From a virus (lineage: Duplodnaviria > Heunggongvirae > Uroviricota > Caudoviricetes): DNA of 9,095 nucleotides. The position numbers and the translations under genes were made by a program. This document shows positions 49-9,095 of the stretch, in pieces (the first letter of the stretch is position 1; the number at the start of each line of letters is the position of its first letter). The stretch lies in IMG/VR virus record IMGVR_UViG_2534681655_000016. One strand, 5' to 3'. Under the pieces are notes generated by a model. The model had not been told where the DNA came from and ran no database searches. It worked only from the letters and a program-made list of their open reading frames with translations.

Positions 49-570
49 ATGTCAAAGCCAAAATACCCTTTTGAAAAGCGCCTTGAAGTCGTGAATCACT
101 ACTTCACAACTGATGATGGTTACAGGATCATCTCGGCACGTTTTGGTGTCCCCCGAACCCAGGTCAGGACATGGGTTGCCCTCTATGAAAAACATGGAGA
201 AAAAGGTTTAATTCCCAAACCTAAAGGCGTTAGTGCTGATCCAGAGTTGCGTATTAAGGTCGTGAAAGCTGTGATCGAGCAGCACATGTCCCTTAATCAG
301 GCTGCTGCTCACTTTATGCTTGCTGGTAGTGGTTCTGTAGCCAGGTGGCTGAAGGTCTATGAAGAGCGCGGAGAAGCTGGTTTACGCGCGCTCAAGATTG
401 GCACCAAAAGAAACATTGCAATATCAGTTGATCCAGAAAAAGCGGCATCAGCATTGGAGCTGTCAAAAGACCGACGCATTGAGGATCTTGAAAGGCAAGT
501 TCGATTTCTTGAAACGCGGCTTATGTATCTAAAAAAGCTGAAAGCCTTAGCTCATCCCACGAAAAAGTGA
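49..570 (+). CDS. insJ: IS150 transposase OrfA (InsJ), helix-turn-helix DNA-binding protein
   Basis: 173-aa ORF starting at ATG 49. The translation MSKPKYPFEKRLEVVNHYF... matches recalled IS150 InsJ. It ends in the TGA at 568..570, overlapping the orfB start. Confidence 0.9.
   Translation: MSKPKYPFEKRLEVVNHYFTTDDGYRIISARFGVPRTQVRTWVALYEKHGEKGLIPKPKGVSADPELRIKVVKAVIEQHMSLNQAAAHFMLAGSGSVARWLKVYEERGEAGLRALKIGTKRNIAISVDPEKAASALELSKDRRIEDLERQVRFLETRLMYLKKLKALAHPTKK
531..537 (+). other. Programmed -1 ribosomal frameshift slippery heptamer A-AAA-AAG (orfA to orfB fusion site)
   Basis: The sequence aaaaaag at 531..537 is phased as A AAA AAG in the insJ reading frame, near the 3' end of orfA. This is the canonical IS3-family/IS150 frameshift motif. 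Confidence 0.6.
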
Positions 571-1417
571 AAGTACTCAACGAGCTAAGGCAGTTTTATC
601 CTCTTGATGAGCTTCTCAGGGCTGCGGAGATACCGCGCAGTACGTTTTATTATCATCTAAAGGCTCTCAGCAAGCCTGACAAGTATGCGGACGTTAAAAA
701 GCGTATTAGTGAGATTTATCACGAGAATAGAGGCCGATACGGATACCGTAGGGTAACGCTGTCTCTTCATCGAGAAGGGAAACAGATTAACCATAAAGCT
801 GTTCAGCGCCTGATGGGAACCCTCTCACTTAAAGCAGCGATTAAGGTCAAGCGATACCGCTCTTACAGAGGAGAGGTAGGGCAAACCGCCCCTAATGTTC
901 TCCAAAGAGATTTCAAGGCTACGCGGCCAAACGAGAAGTGGGTTACCGATGTTACTGAATTTGCAGTCAATGGGCGCAAGCTGTATTTGTCTCCAGTAAT
1001 AGATCTCTTCAACAACGAAGTTATTTCTTACAGCCTTTCGGAAAGACCAGTGATGAACATGGTTGAGAATATGCCGATCAGGCATTCAAAAAGCTTAATC
1101 CTCACGAGCATCCTGTTCTGCACTCTGACCAGGGATGGCAGTATCGTATGAGAAGATATCAAAATATCCTTAAAGAACATGGTATTAAACAAAGCATGTC
1201 CAGAAAAGGCAATTGTCTGGATAATGCTGTGGTGGAGTGTTTCTTTGGAACCTTAAAGTCGGAGTGTTTTTATCTTGATGAGTTCAGTAATATAAGCGAA
1301 CTGAAGGATGCTGTTACGGAATATATTGAATACTACAACAGCAGAAGAATTAGCCTGAAATTAAAAGGTCTGACTCCAATTGAATATCGGAATCAGACCT
1401 ATATGCCTCGTGTTTAA
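567..1417 (+). pseudogene. insK: IS150 transposase OrfB (InsK, DDE catalytic domain), disrupted by an apparent 1-bp deletion near 1074
   Basis: The ORF track splits the expected ~283-aa protein into 567..1151 and 1148..1417. The first piece ends ...[29 protein letters not shown], while the same DNA read one frame over gives ...[30 protein letters not shown], containing the conserved HSDQG motif. This is consistent with loss of one base between atgc and cgatcagg (1071..1080). It starts at GTG 567. Confidence 0.75.
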
Positions 1418-4069: not shown

Positions 4070-4164
4070 GGAAGATCGTCGTCTCCGGTGAGGCGGCTGG
4101 ACTTCAAATCCAGTTGGGGCCGCCAGCGGTCCCGGGCAGGTTCGACTCCTGTGATCTTCCGCCA
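4070..4164 (+). tRNA. selC: tRNA-Sec (selenocysteine tRNA, anticodon UCA), 95 nt, ending in CCA
   Basis: GGAAGATCGTCGTCTCCGGTGAGGCGGCTGGACTTCAAATCCAGTTGGGGCCGCCAGCGGTCCCGGGCAGGTTCGACTCCTGTGATCTTCCGCCA matches recalled E. coli selC. It has the long extra arm typical of tRNA-Sec and the anticodon TCA at 4104..4106. Confidence 0.92.
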
Positions 4165-4326
4165 AACCTCATCCAGCCAGTTCCGAGACACTCCATAAAA
4201 TCATTTATATTCAATGCGATGAATAATCAGCTTGTCCGTAATAGTCCGAGATCATCTCCCTGAATCCGCGAAAAATATGTATAGTAATGTGTATAGATTT
4301 TTTATACGTAGTTTTCAGTTATACAC

Positions 4327-5505
4327 ATGGCCCTAACCGATATACAGATCAAACGTGCAAAACCACAAGACAAACCATACACATTAAACGATGGGCAAGG
4401 TCTGTCATTGCTTATCAATCCCGATGGCTCGAAAGGCTGGCGTTTCCGTTTCCGGTTTGCAGGGAAAGCGCGGTTAATGTCATTTGGCAGCTACGATTTA
4501 GTAAGCCTCGCAGAAGCACGTGAGAAACGCGATACGGCTCGTAAGCAGGTAGCAAACGGCATTGATCCAGTAGCAGAGCGTAAGGCTCAGAAAATTGCTC
4601 AGAAATTATCAACTGAAAACTCTTTTGAGGCCGTTAGCAGAGAATGGCATGCAGCAAAAGCAGATCGCTGGACTTTAGCTTATCGCGAAGAAATTATTAA
4701 AACATTTGAACAGGATGTTTTTCCTTTCATTGGTAAACGGCCAATAGCTGAAATTAAACCCCTAGAACTGCTTGAAGTTCTTAAACGCATAGAAAAACGT
4801 GGAGCGTTGGAGAAAACCAGAAAAGTACGTCAACGATGCGGAGAGGTGTTTCGCTACGCGATCATCACTGGCCGCGCTGAATACAATCCAGCACCTGATT
4901 TAGCTATCGCATTAGCTGTACCGAAGCAAAAACATCATCCTTTTCTATCAGCAGAAGAACTCCCTCATTTTGTCAGAGATCTTGAGGCTTACACAGGTAG
5001 CATAATCACTAAAAATGCAACTAAAATTGTGATGCTTACTGGAGTCAGGACACAGGAAATGCGTTTTGCCACTTGGGACGAAATTGATTTACAAAAAAAG
5101 GTATGGGAAATACCGGCCGAACGAATGAAAATGCGCCGACCACATCTTGTACCACTCTCCACTCAAGTAGTTGAAATTTTTCAACAACTCAAGCTAATCA
5201 CCAAAAACTATCCATATATTTTTATCGGCCGTAATAATCACACTAAGCCAATTTCTAAAGAAAGTGTATCCCAAGTAATAGAATTACTTGGCTATAAAGG
5301 AAGAGCTACGGGCCACGGATTCCGCCATACAATGTCTACTATTTTGCATGAGTACGGATTTAACAGCGAATGGATAGAGTTACAATTGGCTCATGTTGAT
5401 AAGAATAGTATTCGAGGCACTTATAATCATGCCCAATATTTAGAAAAGAGAAGTTCTATGATGCAGTGGTACAGTGATTATATCCTTAATAGAGATAAAG
5501 CATAG
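4327..5505 (+). CDS. int: P4-type tyrosine recombinase/integrase (site-specific integrase of the selC-inserted satellite)
   Basis: 392-aa ORF starting 163 bp after the selC 3' end. The N-terminus (MALTDIQIKRAKPQDKPYTLNDGQGLSLLINPDGSKGWRFRFRF...) is the arm-binding region typical of P4-like integrases. The C-terminus carries catalytic-type residues in GHGFRHT, LAHV and RGTYNH (R...H..R..Y). Confidence 0.9.
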   Translation: MALTDIQIKRAKPQDKPYTLNDGQGLSLLINPDGSKGWRFRFRFAGKARLMSFGSYDLVSLAEAREKRDTARKQVANGIDPVAERKAQKIAQKLSTENSFEAVSREWHAAKADRWTLAYREEIIKTFEQDVFPFIGKRPIAEIKPLELLEVLKRIEKRGALEKTRKVRQRCGEVFRYAIITGRAEYNPAPDLAIALAVPKQKHHPFLSAEELPHFVRDLEAYTGSIITKNATKIVMLTGVRTQEMRFATWDEIDLQKKVWEIPAERMKMRRPHLVPLSTQVVEIFQQLKLITKNYPYIFIGRNNHTKPISKESVSQVIELLGYKGRATGHGFRHTMSTILHEYGFNSEWIELQLAHVDKNSIRGTYNHAQYLEKRSSMMQWYSDYILNRDKA

Positions 5506-5560
5506 AATAATAGAAGTTAATGCTGTATACTGTAAATTAACAATATAGTAAGGATTGAAA

Positions 5561-6427
5561 ATGAAGAAGACAGTACTTATAACTGATTTAGATAACACAC
5601 TATTCGACTGGTTTAGCGTTTGGTATCATAGCTTTAATGCAATGCTAAATAAAGTCGTTGAGATTTCCGGTTTTTCTAAAGACGAGCTTATTGCACAGAT
5701 AAAACCGATTCATCAAAAATATGGTACTGCCGAATACTCTTTTATTCTAGAAAGCATACCTCTTTTACAAGAAAAATATGGTGATAGAAACTCCATCAAT
5801 TTAGTTATGGATGATGCTATACACGCTTTCAGAAGTGAGAGAAAGAAATATCTTTCTCTGTACCCAACAGTAATGGACACTTTGAGTGTATTAAAAAGTA
5901 AAGGGTGTTATATTGTCGCGTATACTGAATCCAAAGCTTATTACTCCAATTTCCGCTTAACAAGATTAGGATTAGATGGTGTGATTGATGTCCTTTTCTC
6001 TCCTGAAGATCATGAAATCCCTGATGGTGAGAAAAAACAAGATAAATATAATCTAATGCTGACAAAGCAAGAATATACACCTATTGATGAAATTAAACCA
6101 AACCCACAACTTCTTCTGGACATAATAAAATCAATTGGTGCCACACCAGAAGAGTGTGTATATATAGGTGACAGTGAAATGAAAGATATAGAAATGGCCC
6201 AAAAAGCAAACGTATCAGATGTTTTTGCAAGCTATGGAACGAATCATTTTGAAGAGAACAAGGAGGGATATGAATTACTCCGTGCGGTAACCCACTGGAC
6301 TGATGCTGATGTTGAAAGGGAAAGAAAAATTAAAGAAAATGCCTTCGGAGCAAAACCCACATATGTAGCCAAACAATTTTCAGATATTTTGTCTTTTTTT
6401 GAATTTACCAAATTTAAAGGAAAATAG
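5561..6427 (+). CDS. HAD-superfamily (haloacid dehalogenase-like) hydrolase/phosphatase, cargo gene 1 of the satellite hotspot
   Basis: All four HAD motifs are present in order: motif I LITDLDNTLFDW (DxDxT), motif II IVAYTES, motif III conserved Lys in IKPNP, motif IV GDSEMKD (GDxxxD). There is a cap-like insertion between motifs I and II. An AAGGA ribosome-binding site lies 8 nt before ATG 5561; the ORF track's TTG at 5555 is less likely. The gene is very AT-rich compared with the flanks. Confidence 0.8.
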   Translation: MKKTVLITDLDNTLFDWFSVWYHSFNAMLNKVVEISGFSKDELIAQIKPIHQKYGTAEYSFILESIPLLQEKYGDRNSINLVMDDAIHAFRSERKKYLSLYPTVMDTLSVLKSKGCYIVAYTESKAYYSNFRLTRLGLDGVIDVLFSPEDHEIPDGEKKQDKYNLMLTKQEYTPIDEIKPNPQLLLDIIKSIGATPEECVYIGDSEMKDIEMAQKANVSDVFASYGTNHFEENKEGYELLRAVTHWTDADVERERKIKENAFGAKPTYVAKQFSDILSFFEFTKFKGK

Positions 6428-6428
6428 A

Positions 6429-7061
6429 ATGAACAATCTAGAATTAAAGAAACATGATGACGCTATAAAATTAGAAAATCTCAAGTTGAAAATTGATATC
6501 TGGAAGACAGTTGTTGACGTTCAGAAACATTTTAATGATCTTGAGATGAAGGTTAGAAACTTCGGAATTTTGATCTTGTCTGCATTTATTGGTGCAATTG
6601 GTGTAAGCTTTAATTCCGGCGCTGAATTTATAGCCTTTGGCAATCATTACTCTGTTGCTGCCATTCTTGCTTTCGGGGCATCTGTTGTTTGGTTGTTATT
6701 TTATTTTGTTGACGTTTACTGGTATCACCCATTACTTCTTGGAGCTGTAAAGAAAGGTTCAGAACTCGAAAAAGAAATTGCATCCGACATCCCAGGAATT
6801 AATCTTACAGAAACCATAGGAAAAAGTAGCCCAAAAGATATTTTGCTCTGGAAAAATATGCATAGTACTGGAAAAGCTAACCTTTTCTACTTTGGGGTTT
6901 TAGCTGTTCTGTTAACTATTTTTATTTCTCTACTGTGCTTTAAATCCCCGCAAAAGACAAATCAACTAAATGAATTAAATATTAAAGCAAATTGCACTAG
7001 AAACAGTAATTACAATGGAGTTAATTGCATTATCGCATCACAGCCAAGTGACAACAAATAG
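6429..7061 (+). CDS. Small membrane protein with a charged, coiled-coil-like N-terminal domain and three predicted transmembrane helices, cargo gene 2
   Basis: ATG 6429 lies 1 nt after the HAD stop (TAG 6425..6427), with an AAGGA ribosome-binding site inside the upstream gene's 3' end, suggesting translational coupling. The protein has three hydrophobic segments: FGILILSAFIGAIGVSF, YSVAAILAFGASVVWLLFYFVDVYWY and FYFGVLAVLLTIFISLLCF. The N-terminal ~45 aa are Lys/Glu-rich. No enzymatic motif was recognised. Confidence 0.75.
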   Translation: MNNLELKKHDDAIKLENLKLKIDIWKTVVDVQKHFNDLEMKVRNFGILILSAFIGAIGVSFNSGAEFIAFGNHYSVAAILAFGASVVWLLFYFVDVYWYHPLLLGAVKKGSELEKEIASDIPGINLTETIGKSSPKDILLWKNMHSTGKANLFYFGVLAVLLTIFISLLCFKSPQKTNQLNELNIKANCTRNSNYNGVNCIIASQPSDNK

Positions 7062-7151
7062 TGCACTTTATCACTCTTTACCCCAACTGCATGTACTTAC
7101 CTTGTGAGCACAGAGACGCGCTATAAATAAACACTTTACTGCTGGCGGGCG

Positions 7152-7170
7152 GTGCTTTCCCCGCCTCGCC
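7152..7170 (-). other. cos: P2/P4-type cos site (19-nt cohesive-end sequence GGCGAGGCGGGGAAAGCAC) with flanking 7-bp inverted repeats
   Basis: The plus strand reads GTGCTTTCCCCGCCTCGCC, the exact reverse complement of the recalled P2/P4 cohesive end. It is flanked by inverted repeats GCGGGCG (7145..7151) and CGCCCGC (7171..7177). Its position downstream of psu matches the P4 genome map. Confidence 0.7.
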
Positions 7171-7271
7171 CGCCCGCTTTGCGGGGCGGTTTTAATGCAG
7201 TTGCACTGACACGCTCAGGCCGCGCCGGGAATGGCGCGGTCTGCAGAAAATGAGGCAGGAAAACGCATGCA

Positions 7272-7334: not shown

Positions 7335-7907
7335 TTACACAGACTGACGTGATGCCAGTTGCGCACTTTTACGCGAAAAAATCATGTTCTGCGCAGGGGT
7401 GAATTTTTCACGGCTGTCATCCACCGAAGCCGCGTCAGGCCTGAATCCGATGGTCGTTAAAATGTCGCTATCCTGTGCGGAATAATTAATTTTTTCCCCC
7501 TTCGCAAGCCAGGACAGAAGGGCTTCACGCAGGGCATCTGTGGCACGCTGTATGGCACAGTTTCGGGCAATGGCCGTCAGCTCACTGTAGCCCATCAGCT
7601 CCGGTGCCAGTGCCGCCGCCAGTGCTGTGCCGTGCTGCTGCATAAAATCATTCAGCCGGTCGCGGATGCTGATGTGCTGAACGGCTTCATGCGAACGAAT
7701 ATAACGACCGGCAGCCTGATTCACCTGCCATTTTCTGACTTCGATAATATTGCGTAATTCGTCCAGGCGACTGACGTTTCTGCCTTCCCCGGACAGAAGC
7801 CGCAGATATTCCTGTTCGGCCGCAGCCAGCTCATTTTTGCGTTGCAGCCATGCTGCTTTGTTATTCTGACAGGTGTCAAAGGCCTGCTGTAAGGCTGTGC
7901 TTTCCAT
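7335..7907 (-). CDS. psu: P4 Psu (polarity suppression / capsid decoration protein)
   Basis: 190-aa ORF whose length and sequence (MESTALQQAFDTCQNNKAAWLQRKNELAAAEQEYLRLL...) match recalled phage P4 Psu. It is the last gene of the sid-delta-psu late operon. Confidence 0.88.
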   Translation of the reverse strand: MESTALQQAFDTCQNNKAAWLQRKNELAAAEQEYLRLLSGEGRNVSRLDELRNIIEVRKWQVNQAAGRYIRSHEAVQHISIRDRLNDFMQQHGTALAAALAPELMGYSELTAIARNCAIQRATDALREALLSWLAKGEKINYSAQDSDILTTIGFRPDAASVDDSREKFTPAQNMIFSRKSAQLASRQSV

Positions 7908-7980: not shown

Positions 7981-8481
7981 TCATTCCAGACGCAGCGAAT
8001 ATGATTGTGTTTTTAACCGTACTGGCGGCAGTTCCTGTTTTTCATGCAGGCGTTCTGCCAGTTCGTCCGGTGTGACCGGGCGGACAATGAAGCGGTTGAT
8101 GGTCTGAAGCGTTTTAAACACCAGACCACAGCCCGGATCCGTGCACACATAAAAACGTTCGGTGACTTCCTGAGACAGACGCCGCGATGTTCTTGACAGT
8201 GCAAGGCCTTTACATCTCCGACAACAATATCCGGTAACAAGCATTCTTTTCGGGCGTTTCATACTGCCGGAGGCAGAAGTCAGTGAATCGCGGTATCTCT
8301 GTTTGCCTGAAATGTATTCCATTCCTGAATCTTTACAGTCAGAGAAAAAGCTTTCACTCGCTTCAAATGTCGCAGAGCAATAAATATTCCGGCACTGTGC
8401 AATCATTATCTTGGTGCCATCGTCCATGAAATGTGCGCGGCGGGTGTGAGCAACATGTCCACACGACGGGCAGTAAATCAT
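7981..8481 (-). CDS. delta: P4 Delta (Ogr-like tandem zinc-finger late-gene transcriptional activator)
   Basis: 166-aa ORF with two Cys-rich Ogr-like repeats (CPSCGHVAHTRR...C...C and C..C......CTDPGCG). Its size matches P4 delta. The ATG overlaps the sid stop in an ATGA arrangement at 8478..8481. Confidence 0.88.
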   Translation of the reverse strand: MIYCPSCGHVAHTRRAHFMDDGTKIMIAQCRNIYCSATFEASESFFSDCKDSGMEYISGKQRYRDSLTSASGSMKRPKRMLVTGYCCRRCKGLALSRTSRRLSQEVTERFYVCTDPGCGLVFKTLQTINRFIVRPVTPDELAERLHEKQELPPVRLKTQSYSLRLE

Positions 8482-9095
8482 GACAGCAGTCCTCTGGCCT
8501 TAAGCTCTGCACCCTGCTGGTCTATTTTGTCCTGCCACACCTTGCGCTGTGCCGGTGTGCCTGCCACCTCATAATCCATGTGCGGGAGTGTTGCCGCTGA
8601 CAGTCCGGTCAGCCGGAGAACCGGCTCGCCGGTGAGGCTGATTTGCATCTGTTTTATTTTCTGTTCCAGCGATGATTTCACCTGCTGCATGACAGCTTTA
8701 TCGGGTGCGACGTAGCCCTGATGCCCGGTGGTGTTGGCGAGCGGATTTTCCTGTACCAGAATGCTCAGATGCATTGCCCGGACAAGCGCCTCACAGGTTT
8801 CATTCAGGGCGTGTTCCAGCTCATGCTCTGCATACAGACTCAGAGGTGATGATGTGCCTTCCGGTAGGCGGTGGCCGTGCTGTCACACGCCCCTTTCAGG
8901 CGTTCACGTTCGAAATTCAGCACCACGGCCAGATTGTCATATTCCTGTACCAGCTCCCGGCGTGCCACGCGCTCAATGTGGCGCTGTTTCAGCTCGTCGC
9001 TCAGGACACCACCGGCTGCACGAAAGGCCGTGCGCCAGTCGTCAGCGTCGTTTCCGTCGGCCTGCGCCAGCGCATTTTTTTCCTGCTCTGCCCGT
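8478..9095 (-). pseudogene. sid: P4 Sid (capsid size-determination external scaffold), apparently frameshifted; the 5' end lies beyond the window
   Basis: The C-terminal part is in the frame ending at TGA 8478..8480 and is open back to a stop at 8883..8885. The N-terminal part (RAEQEKNALAQADGNDADDWRTAFRAAGGVLSDELKQRHIERVARRELVQEYDNLAVVLNFERERLKGACDSTATAYRKAHHHL*) is in a different frame, running from the window edge to a TGA at 8840..8842. The two frames overlap at 8843..8882 and their combined length fits the ~244-aa Sid, implying a 1-bp indel there. Confidence 0.7.

What the first reader, a model, noticed from the sequence alone, without database searches (positions are those of the whole stretch)
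6429..7061. 3-TM protein with a charged coiled-coil-like N-terminus: candidate membrane effector or anchor
The protein has no recognisable enzymatic motif. It has a ~45-aa Lys/Glu-rich N-terminal segment (NNLELKKHDDAIKLENLKLKIDIWKTVVDVQKHFNDLEMKV), three strongly hydrophobic helices, and a ~50-aa loop between helices 2 and 3. Small multi-TM proteins paired with an enzyme are a recurring architecture in abortive-infection systems, where the membrane protein depolarises or permeabilises the membrane upon activation. The tight coupling to the HAD gene suggests a stoichiometric complex.
Basis: inference. Interest (0 to 1): 0.6.

Follow-up and report, generated by a model that had tools for sequence, protein, structure and literature searches.

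The report
MisC membrane effector of Metis defence

Summary
The ORF at 6429-7061 is real. It encodes 210 aa with a charged N-terminal helix, three hydrophobic helices and a ~50-aa loop between helices 2 and 3. It starts 1 nt after the stop codon of a HAD phosphatase gene.

The system is already known. Both proteins are 100% identical to the 'Hydrolase + 3TM' operon of E. coli 2862600, which Rousset et al. 2022 cloned from a P4-satellite hotspot and showed to block phage T7. They match PADLOC's Hydrolase-TM models over their full length. RefSeq names the near-identical genes misB and misC. A 2025 preprint lists this exact protein as MisC of type II Metis.

Published model: phage degradation of Dam-methylated host DNA releases m6dAMP. 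MisC senses it on its cytoplasmic face and becomes toxic, as a predicted octameric pore. MisB dephosphorylates basal m6dAMP to prevent self-killing. The ligand experiments used a 29%-identical homologue; the leucine mutated there corresponds to L103 here, which is conserved.

'Coiled coil' and 'stoichiometric complex with the HAD enzyme' are not established.

Side observations:
- MisB-MisC fusions are common in the family.
- The enterobacterial C-terminal tail carries a conserved cysteine pair.
- The preprint has a supplementary-table inconsistency.
- 'T7-specific' defence may be a temperature effect.

The parts
4070..4164 (+). tRNA-Sec (selC), integration site of the P4-like satellite
   Evidence: ARAGORN. 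The same layout is annotated in E. coli E6.
4327..5505 (+). Tyrosine integrase of the satellite; left border of the variable cargo region
   Evidence: Pfam Arm-DNA-bind_3, Phage_int_M and Phage_integrase.
5561..6427 (+). misB: HAD-family phosphatase of 288 aa with motif I D9-L-D11-N-T. Proposed scavenger of basal m6dAMP.
   Evidence: Pfam HAD_2 E 7e-18. PADLOC PDLC03008 E 6e-198. 100% identical to protein 1 of Rousset's pFR97. 40% identical to the biochemically characterised MisB of E. coli 401675 and 35% to Phyllobacterium MisB.
6429..7061 (+). misC: 210-aa 3-TM sensor/effector; this is the finding
   Evidence: PADLOC PDLC03009 'Hydrolase-TM', E 6e-140, profile positions 1-210 of 210. 100% identical to protein 2 of pFR97 and to the 'TM' partner listed for E. 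coli 2862600 in the Metis preprint's Table S1. RefSeq gene name misC in strain E6, which differs at 2 residues.
6483..6563 (+). MisC aa 19-45: conserved membrane-proximal half of the N-terminal helix (K19, W25, K26, Q32, H34, F35, N36, M40, R43)
   Evidence: Invariant or near-invariant columns in A1. At least 90% conserved in 296 unique family sequences. Part of one continuous helix 3-63 in the AF2 model.
6558..6620 (+). TM1 (about aa 44-64)
   Evidence: Hydropathy and AF2 helix.
6648..6722 (+). TM2 (about aa 74-98)
   Evidence: Hydropathy and AF2 helix 76-118.
6711..6770 (+). MisC aa 95-114: conserved juxtamembrane motif D95-x2-W-Y-H-P-L-L103-L-G-A-V...E114. L103 (codon 6735-6737) aligns with L110 of Phyllobacterium MisC, whose L110A mutation abolishes defence.
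   Evidence: Alignments. L110A strain in the preprint's Table S3 and text.
6876..6944 (+). TM3 (about aa 150-172)
   Evidence: Hydropathy and AF2 helix 146-170.
6987..7034 (+). C-terminal tail hairpin (aa 187-202) with Cys189 and Cys199, probably periplasmic. The cysteine pair is conserved only among enterobacterial and Aeromonas homologues.
   Evidence: Alignment A1 rows 1-11. AF2 strands 187-191 and 198-202 at low pLDDT. Periplasmic location and a disulfide are inference.
7152..7170 (-). cos: 19-nt P2/P4 cohesive end GGCGAGGCGGGGAAAGCAC; right border of the variable cargo region
   Evidence: Identical to nt 1-19 of P4 NC_001609. The linear end of the P4 record maps to window 7171.
7170..7189 (+). 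GC-rich hairpin followed by a T-run; possible terminator of misBC (overlaps the cos region)
   Evidence: Consensus scan only.
7335..7907 (-). psu (satellite core gene)
   Evidence: Pfam Psu E 1e-88. 98.5% DNA identity to P4.
7981..8481 (-). delta (Ogr/Delta zinc-finger activator; satellite core gene)
   Evidence: Pfam Ogr_Delta. P4 annotation.

Best explanation
Window 6429-7061 encodes MisC, the membrane sensor-effector of a type II Metis anti-phage system. The system was previously named 'Hydrolase + 3TM' (PADLOC: Hydrolase-TM). Here it is the only cargo in the int-cos defence hotspot of a P4-like satellite integrated at tRNA-Sec in E. coli.

Working model, taken from the Metis preprint and applied to this protein:
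1. A lytic phage such as T7 degrades the Dam-methylated host chromosome to mononucleotides, so N6-methyl-dAMP (m6dAMP) rises sharply.
2. m6dAMP binds a pocket on the cytoplasmic face of MisC. I infer that this pocket is built from the conserved N-terminal helix segment (W25, K26, Q32, H34, F35, N36, R43) and the motif after TM2 (D95, W98, Y99, H100, L102, L103, G105, V107, E114).
3. Ligand-bound MisC, predicted to be an octameric ring, becomes toxic, presumably by opening or forming a pore in the inner membrane. This aborts the infection.
4. MisB, the HAD phosphatase translated just upstream, continuously dephosphorylates basal m6dAMP to inert m6dA, so MisC stays silent in uninfected cells.

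Status of each step:
- Shown for this exact sequence: anti-T7 defence.
- Shown for a 29%-identical homologue: dam dependence, escape by denA phage mutants, toxicity of added m6dAMP, loss of defence with L110A, and no loss with catalytic-dead MisB.
- Shown for a 40%-identical MisB: phosphatase activity on m6dAMP.
- Predicted only: the binding pocket, the octamer, the pore and the topology (N-terminus in, C-terminus out).
For: Identity:
- MisB and MisC are 100% identical to the proteins of Rousset's pFR97 (E. coli 2862600). The 399 nt of insert shown match the window from 5411.
- The same 210-aa sequence is listed as the 3-TM partner of MisB in the Metis preprint's Table S1.
- PADLOC hits are full length, E 6e-140 and 6e-198.
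- RefSeq annotates misB and misC in a locus 99.9% identical over the misBC segment.

Function:
- Rousset et al. report that the HAD hydrolase plus TM protein specifically inhibits T7.
- The preprint gives the type II Metis experiments and model.

Homology to the characterised proteins:
- MisC against Phyllobacterium MisC: E 1e-12, 29% identity. L103 aligns with the mutated L110.
- L103 is leucine in 97% of 296 unique family sequences.
- MisB is 35-40% identical to both characterised MisBs and has an intact DxD motif.

Architecture and context:
- Three TM segments.
- Conservation is concentrated in the N-terminal helix segment and the motif after TM2, not in the TM cores.
- A MisB-like gene lies directly upstream on the same strand or fused in 67 of 76 species-representative loci.
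- The cargo sits between int and cos with GC 0.33-0.35 against about 0.5 in the flanks.
Against: - The ligand experiments were done on the Phyllobacterium system, not on this sequence, and are so far in a preprint only.
- Pore formation and the octamer rest on AlphaFold3 models. No membrane-integrity measurement is reported in the text I read.
- Rousset's assay found defence only against T7, not T4, although T4 also degrades host DNA. This may be a temperature effect, because T7 was the only phage plated at room temperature and the preprint assayed type II Metis at 25 C. That has not been tested.
- My AF2 monomer has only moderate confidence (pLDDT 77.8, pTM 0.62), and I could not inspect coordinates or model multimers.
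- No solved structure resembles it.
Confidence: 0.8

Rival explanations
1. MisC and MisB form a classical toxin-antitoxin-like stoichiometric complex. MisB neutralises MisC by direct binding, and infection releases or destroys MisB.
For: There is a 1-nt gap between the genes, which suggests translational coupling. The MisB-then-MisC order is near-universal. Single-polypeptide MisB-MisC fusions with 0-13-aa linkers occur in 15 of 76 loci and 28 of 218 proteins, which argues for physical proximity.
Against: In type I Metis, catalytic aspartate mutants of MisB lose the protective effect, so catalysis rather than mere binding prevents toxicity. MisB removes m6dAMP in vivo and in vitro. In a fusion the two parts cannot dissociate, so release cannot be the trigger. 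A few MisC genes have no MisB nearby.
Confidence: 0.07
2. The E. coli MisC senses a signal other than m6dAMP, such as another modified nucleotide or a T7-specific product. This would explain the T7-only phenotype.
For: Rousset et al. saw defence only against T7 in an eight-phage panel that included T4. This MisC is only 29% identical to the MisC for which m6dAMP dependence was shown. The preprint itself expects Metis variants that sense other modified bases.
Against: Most family-conserved positions, including L103 (= L110), are shared between the two proteins. T7 was the only phage plated at room temperature, and type II Metis was assayed at 25 C. MisB is 40% identical to an enzyme shown to act on m6dAMP.
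Confidence: 0.08
3. MisC is merely a membrane anchor or scaffold that localises the HAD phosphatase, and the enzyme is the real effector.
For: The N-terminal amphipathic helix and the fusions could be read as tethering.
Against: Catalytic-dead MisB still gives defence, and a MisC point mutant abolishes it. MisB alone does not protect in type I. The strongest conservation in MisC is in a juxtamembrane motif, not in generic TM anchors.
Confidence: 0.03
4. This is not a defence gene at all but a housekeeping small membrane protein or nucleoside transporter coupled to a nucleotidase.
For: No annotated domain is found. HAD nucleotidases are common in metabolism.
Against: There is direct published anti-phage activity for the identical operon. 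It lies in the P4 int-cos hotspot with foreign GC content. It is present in only 13 of 5426 complete E. coli genomes.
Confidence: 0.02

Closest known systems
'Hydrolase + 3TM' system of E. coli 2862600 (Rousset et al. 2022, Cell Host Microbe, PMC9122126; PADLOC 'Hydrolase-TM'; I recall DefenseFinder calling it Rst_Hydrolase-3Tm, from memory)
   Same: Both proteins are 100% identical. The 399 nt of the cloned insert shown are identical. The position in a P4-like satellite hotspot is the same.
   Different: Nothing at the protein level. The reverse cloning primer differs from the window by a base or two near cos, so the window may come from a different strain carrying the same cargo.
MisC of type II Metis, Phyllobacterium sp. 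UNC302MFCol5.2 (Osterman et al., bioRxiv 10.1101/2025.11.05.686725)
   Same: Both have three TM helices, sit in an operon with MisB, share most family-conserved positions including the essential leucine (L110 = L103), and belong to the same family by HMM.
   Different: Identity is only 29% (E 1e-12). The C-terminal tails differ and the cysteine pair is absent in Phyllobacterium. Dam dependence, denA escape and m6dAMP toxicity were shown there, not for the E. coli protein.
Type I Metis (MisA calcineurin-like NAD+ diphosphatase plus MisB)
   Same: It has the same MisB buffer enzyme (40% identity to the characterised one) and the same proposed trigger, m6dAMP.
   Different: The effector is a soluble NAD+-cleaving enzyme, not a membrane protein. 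No MisA is present in this window.
Nucleotide-gated transmembrane effectors of CBASS, Pycsar and Thoeris and SLATT-type 2-TM proteins (from my knowledge of the literature)
   Same: Works alike: a small multi-TM protein that binds a nucleotide on the cytoplasmic side and kills the cell by damaging the membrane.
   Different: No sequence or fold relationship was detected. The ligand is a breakdown product of host DNA, not a signal made by a dedicated cyclase. The partner enzyme destroys the ligand rather than making it.
Pfam PF24838 '8xMP' (octameric membrane protein family)
   Same: Weak, recurrent matches occur in 10 of 22 MisC homologues, with best E 0.0013. One fusion protein matches profile positions 2-130 of 136. 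The family name echoes the AF3 octamer prediction for MisC.
   Different: All scores (16-18 bits) are below the 30-bit gathering cut-off, so membership is not met. I found no literature on 8xMP.
gop-beta-cII cargo of the reference P4 satellite
   Same: It occupies the same locus between cos and int and is also an anti-phage cargo.
   Different: The genes are unrelated. Homology with P4 stops about 23 nt past the cos end.

Membership tests
Type II Metis (MisB-MisC) | MisC has three predicted membrane-spanning helices and no annotated domain | tested here: met
   Three hydropathy peaks and AF2 helices. No Pfam or NCBIfam family is above threshold.
Type II Metis (MisB-MisC) | Encoded in an operon with a MisB-type HAD phosphatase that has catalytic aspartates | tested here: met
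   misB lies 1 nt upstream on the same strand. It has the D9-L-D11 motif and is 35-40% identical to both characterised MisBs. The same synteny is found in 67 of 76 loci.
Type II Metis (MisB-MisC) | Sequence homology to the experimentally characterised MisC, with the essential pocket leucine (L110) conserved | tested here: met
   BLASTP E 1e-12, with L103 aligned to L110. Leucine at this position in 97% of 296 family sequences. The exact protein is listed as the MisB partner in the preprint's Table S1.
Type II Metis (MisB-MisC) | Activation by m6dAMP, and dependence on host Dam and on phage-driven host DNA degradation | not testable with these tools
   Shown only for the Phyllobacterium system. 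Needs a dam-deleted host, T7 gene 3/6 mutants and m6dAMP feeding with this operon.
Type II Metis (MisB-MisC) | Predicted octameric membrane ring | not testable with these tools
   Only monomer prediction is available here. The indirect hint is sub-threshold Pfam 8xMP matches.
Type II Metis (MisB-MisC) | Confers anti-phage defence | tested here: met
   Not re-tested experimentally. The identical operon was shown to block T7 (PMC9122126).
PADLOC Hydrolase-TM / Rousset 'Hydrolase + 3TM' | Both component HMMs matched over full length by adjacent genes | tested here: met
   PDLC03009 positions 1-210 of 210, E 6e-140. PDLC03008 positions 1-288 of 288, E 6e-198.
P4-like satellite defence hotspot cargo | Located between the integrase and cos/psu of a P4-like element | tested here: met
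   int 4327-5505 and cos 7152-7170. psu, delta and sid are 98.5% identical to P4.
Pfam PF24838 8xMP | Score at or above the gathering threshold (30 bits) | tested here: not met
   16 bits, E 0.011. The best among 22 homologues is E 0.0013.
   AF2 gives one continuous helix 3-63 running into TM1. By eye the hydrophobic spacing is roughly 3-4. The partner helix cannot be seen without coordinates or multimer models.

The most novel reading that the evidence does not exclude
The phosphatase may not be a free, diffusible scavenger. It may be physically docked on the cytoplasmic N-terminal helices of the MisC ring, as it is covalently in the natural MisB-MisC fusions found in about 13-20% of family members. 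In that case it would act as a built-in local threshold-setter for the pore. A related untested idea is that the 'T7-only' range of this E. coli system is a temperature effect (active at about 25 C, silent at 37 C) and not phage specificity.
Probability: 0.25. Interest if true: 0.35.

Novelty: already known. Interest (0 to 1): 0.12.

Why it matters
The finding itself adds nothing new. The exact protein has been cloned, shown to defend against T7, given HMMs in defence-finder databases, named misC in RefSeq and placed in a mechanistic model.

Metis is interesting biology, because the cell detects its own methylated nucleotides as a sign that its genome is being shredded.

The small additions here could help people working on Metis:
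- family-wide conservation mapped onto this protein;
- frequent MisB-MisC fusions;
- a clade-specific, probably periplasmic cysteine hairpin;
- the temperature caveat on phage range;
- the supplementary-table inconsistency in the preprint.

None of these changes the picture.

Tried and rejected
- Pfam, NCBIfam: no significant family for MisC. The BlaR1 hit (E 0.031, 12.6 bits against a cut-off of 400) was rejected as noise.
- Foldseek against PDB: nothing with E below 0.4.
- Profile search of PDB sequences: 0 hits at E up to 10.
- AFDB50 fold search: library unavailable.
- Literature search for '8xMP': only unrelated papers.
- tblastn of MisC against INPHARED phage records: no match.
- NAR 2026 P2/P4 hotspot paper: the main text does not mention this system.
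- Alternative TTG start at 6399: considered and rejected, because of homologues' N-termini, the ribosome-binding site and the RefSeq gene call.
- Possibility that the preprint's 'Phyllobacterium' system is really this E. coli sequence, since its Table S3 prints this DNA: considered and rejected as the more likely reading. The mutant name L110A fits only the Phyllobacterium MisC given in Table S1; residue 110 here is Gly.
- Promoter scan: no convincing sigma-70 consensus upstream of misB on the + strand. Rousset's insert starting at 5411 nevertheless worked from its native promoter.

Full report
**Observation.** The window carries an ORF from ATG 6429 to TAG 7061 on the + strand, encoding 210 aa. 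It begins 1 nt after the stop codon (6425-6427) of a 288-aa HAD-family gene at 5561-6427 and is preceded by an AAGGAA ribosome-binding motif. Residues 1-45 contain 9 Lys/Arg and 8 Asp/Glu. Three stretches exceed a Kyte-Doolittle mean of 1.6 over 19 residues, at about aa 44-64, 74-98 and 150-172. A ~50-aa polar loop (aa 100-149) separates the second and third. An AlphaFold2 monomer built on a 22-sequence alignment (mean pLDDT 77.8) gives helix 3-63 (the N-terminal helix continuous with TM1), a short hairpin 66-75, helix 76-118, helix 126-133, helix 146-170 and a low-confidence C-terminal hairpin 187-202. No Pfam or NCBIfam family reaches threshold.

**Context.** The window is E. coli chromosome. 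It contains an IS3-family element (49-1417) that cuts yicI, then yicJ, tRNA-Sec at 4070-4164, a tyrosine integrase at 4327-5505 and the two-gene cassette. The 19-nt P2/P4 cohesive end follows at 7152-7170; on the minus strand it is identical to nt 1-19 of P4 NC_001609. After it come psu, delta and sid at 98.5% DNA identity to P4. Homology to P4 stops about 23 nt beyond cos. The interval from about 5506 to 7148 is thus the variable cargo slot that holds gop-beta-cII in P4. Its GC content is 0.33-0.35 against about 0.5 in the flanks. This is the P4-satellite defence hotspot described by Rousset et al. 2022 (PMC9122126).

**Identity.** PADLOC models PDLC03009 'Hydrolase-TM' and PDLC03008 'Hydrolase' match the two proteins end to end (E 6e-140 and 6e-198). 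Table S2A of Rousset et al. gives the sequences of plasmid pFR97, labelled 'Hydrolase + 3TM', P4, E. coli 2862600, NZ_APXH01000137, '3 TMs in protein 2'. Both proteins are 100% identical to those of the window, and the 399 nt of insert shown match the window from 5411. That paper reports that this HAD-like hydrolase with a transmembrane protein specifically inhibits phage T7, and it proposes abortive infection. In complete E. coli genomes the cassette is rare: 8 of 5426 carry it at 99.7% identity or more, 5 more carry an allele about 70% identical, and all are chromosomal. In strain E6, RefSeq names the genes misB and misC.

**Mechanism from the literature.** The gene names come from Osterman et al., bioRxiv 10.1101/2025.11.05.686725.
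- Metis senses N6-methyl-dAMP, which is released when lytic phages degrade the Dam-methylated host genome.
- In type I, m6dAMP activates MisA, an NAD+ diphosphatase.
- MisB, a HAD phosphatase, converts basal m6dAMP to m6dA and so prevents toxicity. This was shown in vitro and in vivo for E. coli 401675 MisB.
- In type II, MisB is paired with MisC, a 3-TM protein.

For the Phyllobacterium sp. UNC302MFCol5.2 operon the authors show the following:
- defence is lost in a dam-deleted host;
- T6 denA mutants escape;
- cells stop growing when m6dAMP is added;
- MisC L110A abolishes defence;
- catalytic-dead MisB D9N does not abolish defence.

AlphaFold3 places m6dAMP in a pocket in the intracellular part of MisC and predicts an octameric ring that could be a pore. 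These are predictions, not measurements. The preprint's Table S1 lists the exact 210-aa protein of this window as the 3-TM partner of MisB in E. coli 2862600.

**Link to the characterised proteins.** The window MisC aligns with Phyllobacterium MisC at 29% identity (E 1e-12), and the mutated L110 corresponds to L103 here (YHRML110RGAV against YHPLL103LGAV). The window MisB is 35% identical to Phyllobacterium MisB (E 4e-55) and 40% identical to the biochemically characterised MisB of E. coli 401675 (E 4e-63). It retains the D9-x-D11 motif. An exhaustive profile search finds 1624 clusters (50% identity) with E at or below 1e-3. In 296 unique family sequences, the positions conserved in at least 88% are W25, K26, Q32, H34, F35, N36, R43, D95, W98, Y99, H100, L102, L103, G105, V107, E114, L126, I130, S134, S146, K149, F153 and Y154. 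These lie in the membrane-proximal half of the N-terminal helix, in the stretch just after TM2, and in the loop before TM3. On my inferred topology these are all on the cytoplasmic side, while the TM cores are less conserved. That pattern fits a cytoplasmic ligand pocket better than a generic coiled coil or anchor. I could not inspect coordinates to confirm that these residues meet in space.

**Topology (inference).**
- Positive charges are concentrated in the N-terminus (9 K/R) and the TM2-TM3 loop (7 K/R), with none in the TM1-TM2 loop.
- In natural fusions, the cytoplasmic HAD enzyme is joined directly to the MisC N-terminus (see the next paragraph).
- Both points indicate N-terminus in, C-terminus out.
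- The enterobacterial and Aeromonas homologues share two cysteines (C189, C199) flanking a predicted hairpin in the C-terminal tail. This would fit a periplasmic disulfide.

**Synteny and fusions.** In 76 species-representative genomes with a MisC homologue, 67 have a MisB-like HAD either immediately upstream on the same strand or fused. These span Proteobacteria, Acidobacteriota, Actinomycetota, Bacteroidota, Planctomycetota, Chloroflexota, a CPR bacterium and one archaeal MAG. In 15 of them a single ORF carries both domains. Among 218 family proteins, 28 carry a MisB-like domain N-terminal to MisC, with 0-13-aa linkers in most. Fifteen of these have a complete HAD domain, and Pfam confirms HAD in those I scanned. 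Four loci have MisC without MisB within 2.5 kb, and one has a convergent arrangement. The words 'fusion' and 'fused' do not occur in the preprint's main text. The fusions argue for physical proximity of enzyme and sensor but do not prove a complex in the two-gene form.

- Right: a defence-type membrane effector paired with an enzyme, probably acting by abortive infection.
- Imprecise: the N-terminus is a conserved sensor-side element, not a generic coiled coil; MisC is the sensor as well as the effector; and the HAD enzyme antagonises activation by destroying the ligand. A stoichiometric complex is neither required nor shown.

**Open points.**
1. All ligand experiments used a 29%-identical homologue and are at preprint stage.
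2. The pore and the octamer are predictions only.
3. Rousset's T7-only phenotype sits oddly with a sensor of general host-DNA degradation, because T4 was in the panel. However, T7 was the only phage plated at room temperature, all others being at 37 C, and the preprint lists 25 C for type II Metis assays. The narrow range may therefore be a temperature effect. This is my inference and is untested.
4. The preprint's Table S3 prints, for the 'Phyllobacterium' type II system, a synthesised sequence whose 399 nt shown are identical to window 5561-5959. It also lists plasmid 'Metis 2862600' for two strains named UNC302MFCol5.2. The mutant name L110A fits only the Phyllobacterium MisC of Table S1, since residue 110 here is Gly. 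A table error is the simpler reading, but it leaves some doubt about which construct was used in which experiment.

**Verdict.** The feature is real and correctly described. It is MisC of a type II Metis system (= 'Hydrolase + 3TM') on a P4-like satellite and is already known. Interest is low. The side observations are minor additions.

Noticed in passing
L007, L010, L011, L014, L015, L018, L019, L021, L025, L029, L030, L032, L055, L058, L063 (match near 4100-5650 in most); proteins P0103, P0115, P0123, P0124, P0131, P0138, P0141, P0146, P0151, P0172, P0181, P0209: MisB and MisC occur as one polypeptide, with the HAD domain N-terminal and a 0-13-aa linker in most. This is seen in 15 of 76 species-representative loci and 28 of 218 family proteins, across many phyla. 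The Metis preprint's main text does not contain the words 'fusion' or 'fused'.
   Followed up: yes
window 5561-5959, compared with Supplementary Table 3 of bioRxiv 10.1101/2025.11.05.686725: The 'synthesized sequence' printed for the Phyllobacterium sp. UNC302MFCol5.2 type II Metis system is identical to the E. coli misB of this window over the 399 nt shown. Two strains named UNC302MFCol5.2 list plasmid 'Metis 2862600'. The mutant name L110A fits only the true Phyllobacterium MisC of Table S1, so a table mix-up is likely.
   Followed up: partly
window 5411-7200 (the cloned system): Rousset et al. plated T7 at room temperature and all other phages at 37 C, and the Metis preprint assayed type II Metis at 25 C. 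The reported 'T7-specific' defence of this operon may therefore reflect temperature, not phage range.
   Followed up: partly
window 6987-7034 (MisC aa 187-202): Two cysteines (C189, C199) flank a predicted beta-hairpin in the C-terminal tail. They are conserved in enterobacterial and Aeromonas homologues but absent in more distant ones. They may form a periplasmic disulfide of unknown role.
   Followed up: partly
window 6495-6704 (MisC aa 23-92); protein P0100 aa 202-345: Sub-threshold but recurrent matches to Pfam PF24838 '8xMP, octameric membrane protein family' occur in 10 of 22 homologues. This echoes the AlphaFold3 octamer prediction for MisC. I found no literature on 8xMP.
   Followed up: partly
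window 8478-9095, around 8843 (minus strand): The sid gene of the satellite has a 1-nt deletion relative to P4, which shifts the frame. Only the C-terminal 98 codons remain as an ORF. The cause could be a sid pseudogene or a sequencing error.
   Followed up: partly
window 49-1417 and 1414-2385: An IS3-family element (orfA is 173 aa; I recall it resembling IS150 InsJ) truncates yicI to 323 codons. Its orfB is split into two ORFs (567-1151 and 1148-1417), which suggests a frameshifted transposase.
   Followed up: no
L026 3205-3747, L040 4965-5558, L048 5001-5504, L077 4944-5255, L054 260-1153: A few MisC homologues have no MisB-like gene within 2.5 kb, and one (L054) has MisB convergent on the opposite strand. 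If MisC is toxic without MisB, it is unexplained how these cells cope.
   Followed up: partly
Rousset et al. 2022, Table S2 (pFR96, E. coli HVH3, P4 hotspot): A 'Phosphoesterase + HAD' pair from a P4 hotspot showed no activity in their panel. By its domain description it looks like a type I Metis (MisA-MisB) system. I did not compare the sequences.
   Followed up: no
plasmid hits H32-H39 (for example NZ_CP006989.1 Rhizobium etli 159777-160277): MisC homologues occur on 8 plasmids of Rhizobium, Pseudomonas syringae, Rhodobacter, Arthrobacter and Cnuibacter. Some lie under a feature annotated as a HAD hydrolase, so they are probably fusions. None occur in the phage collection.
   Followed up: no
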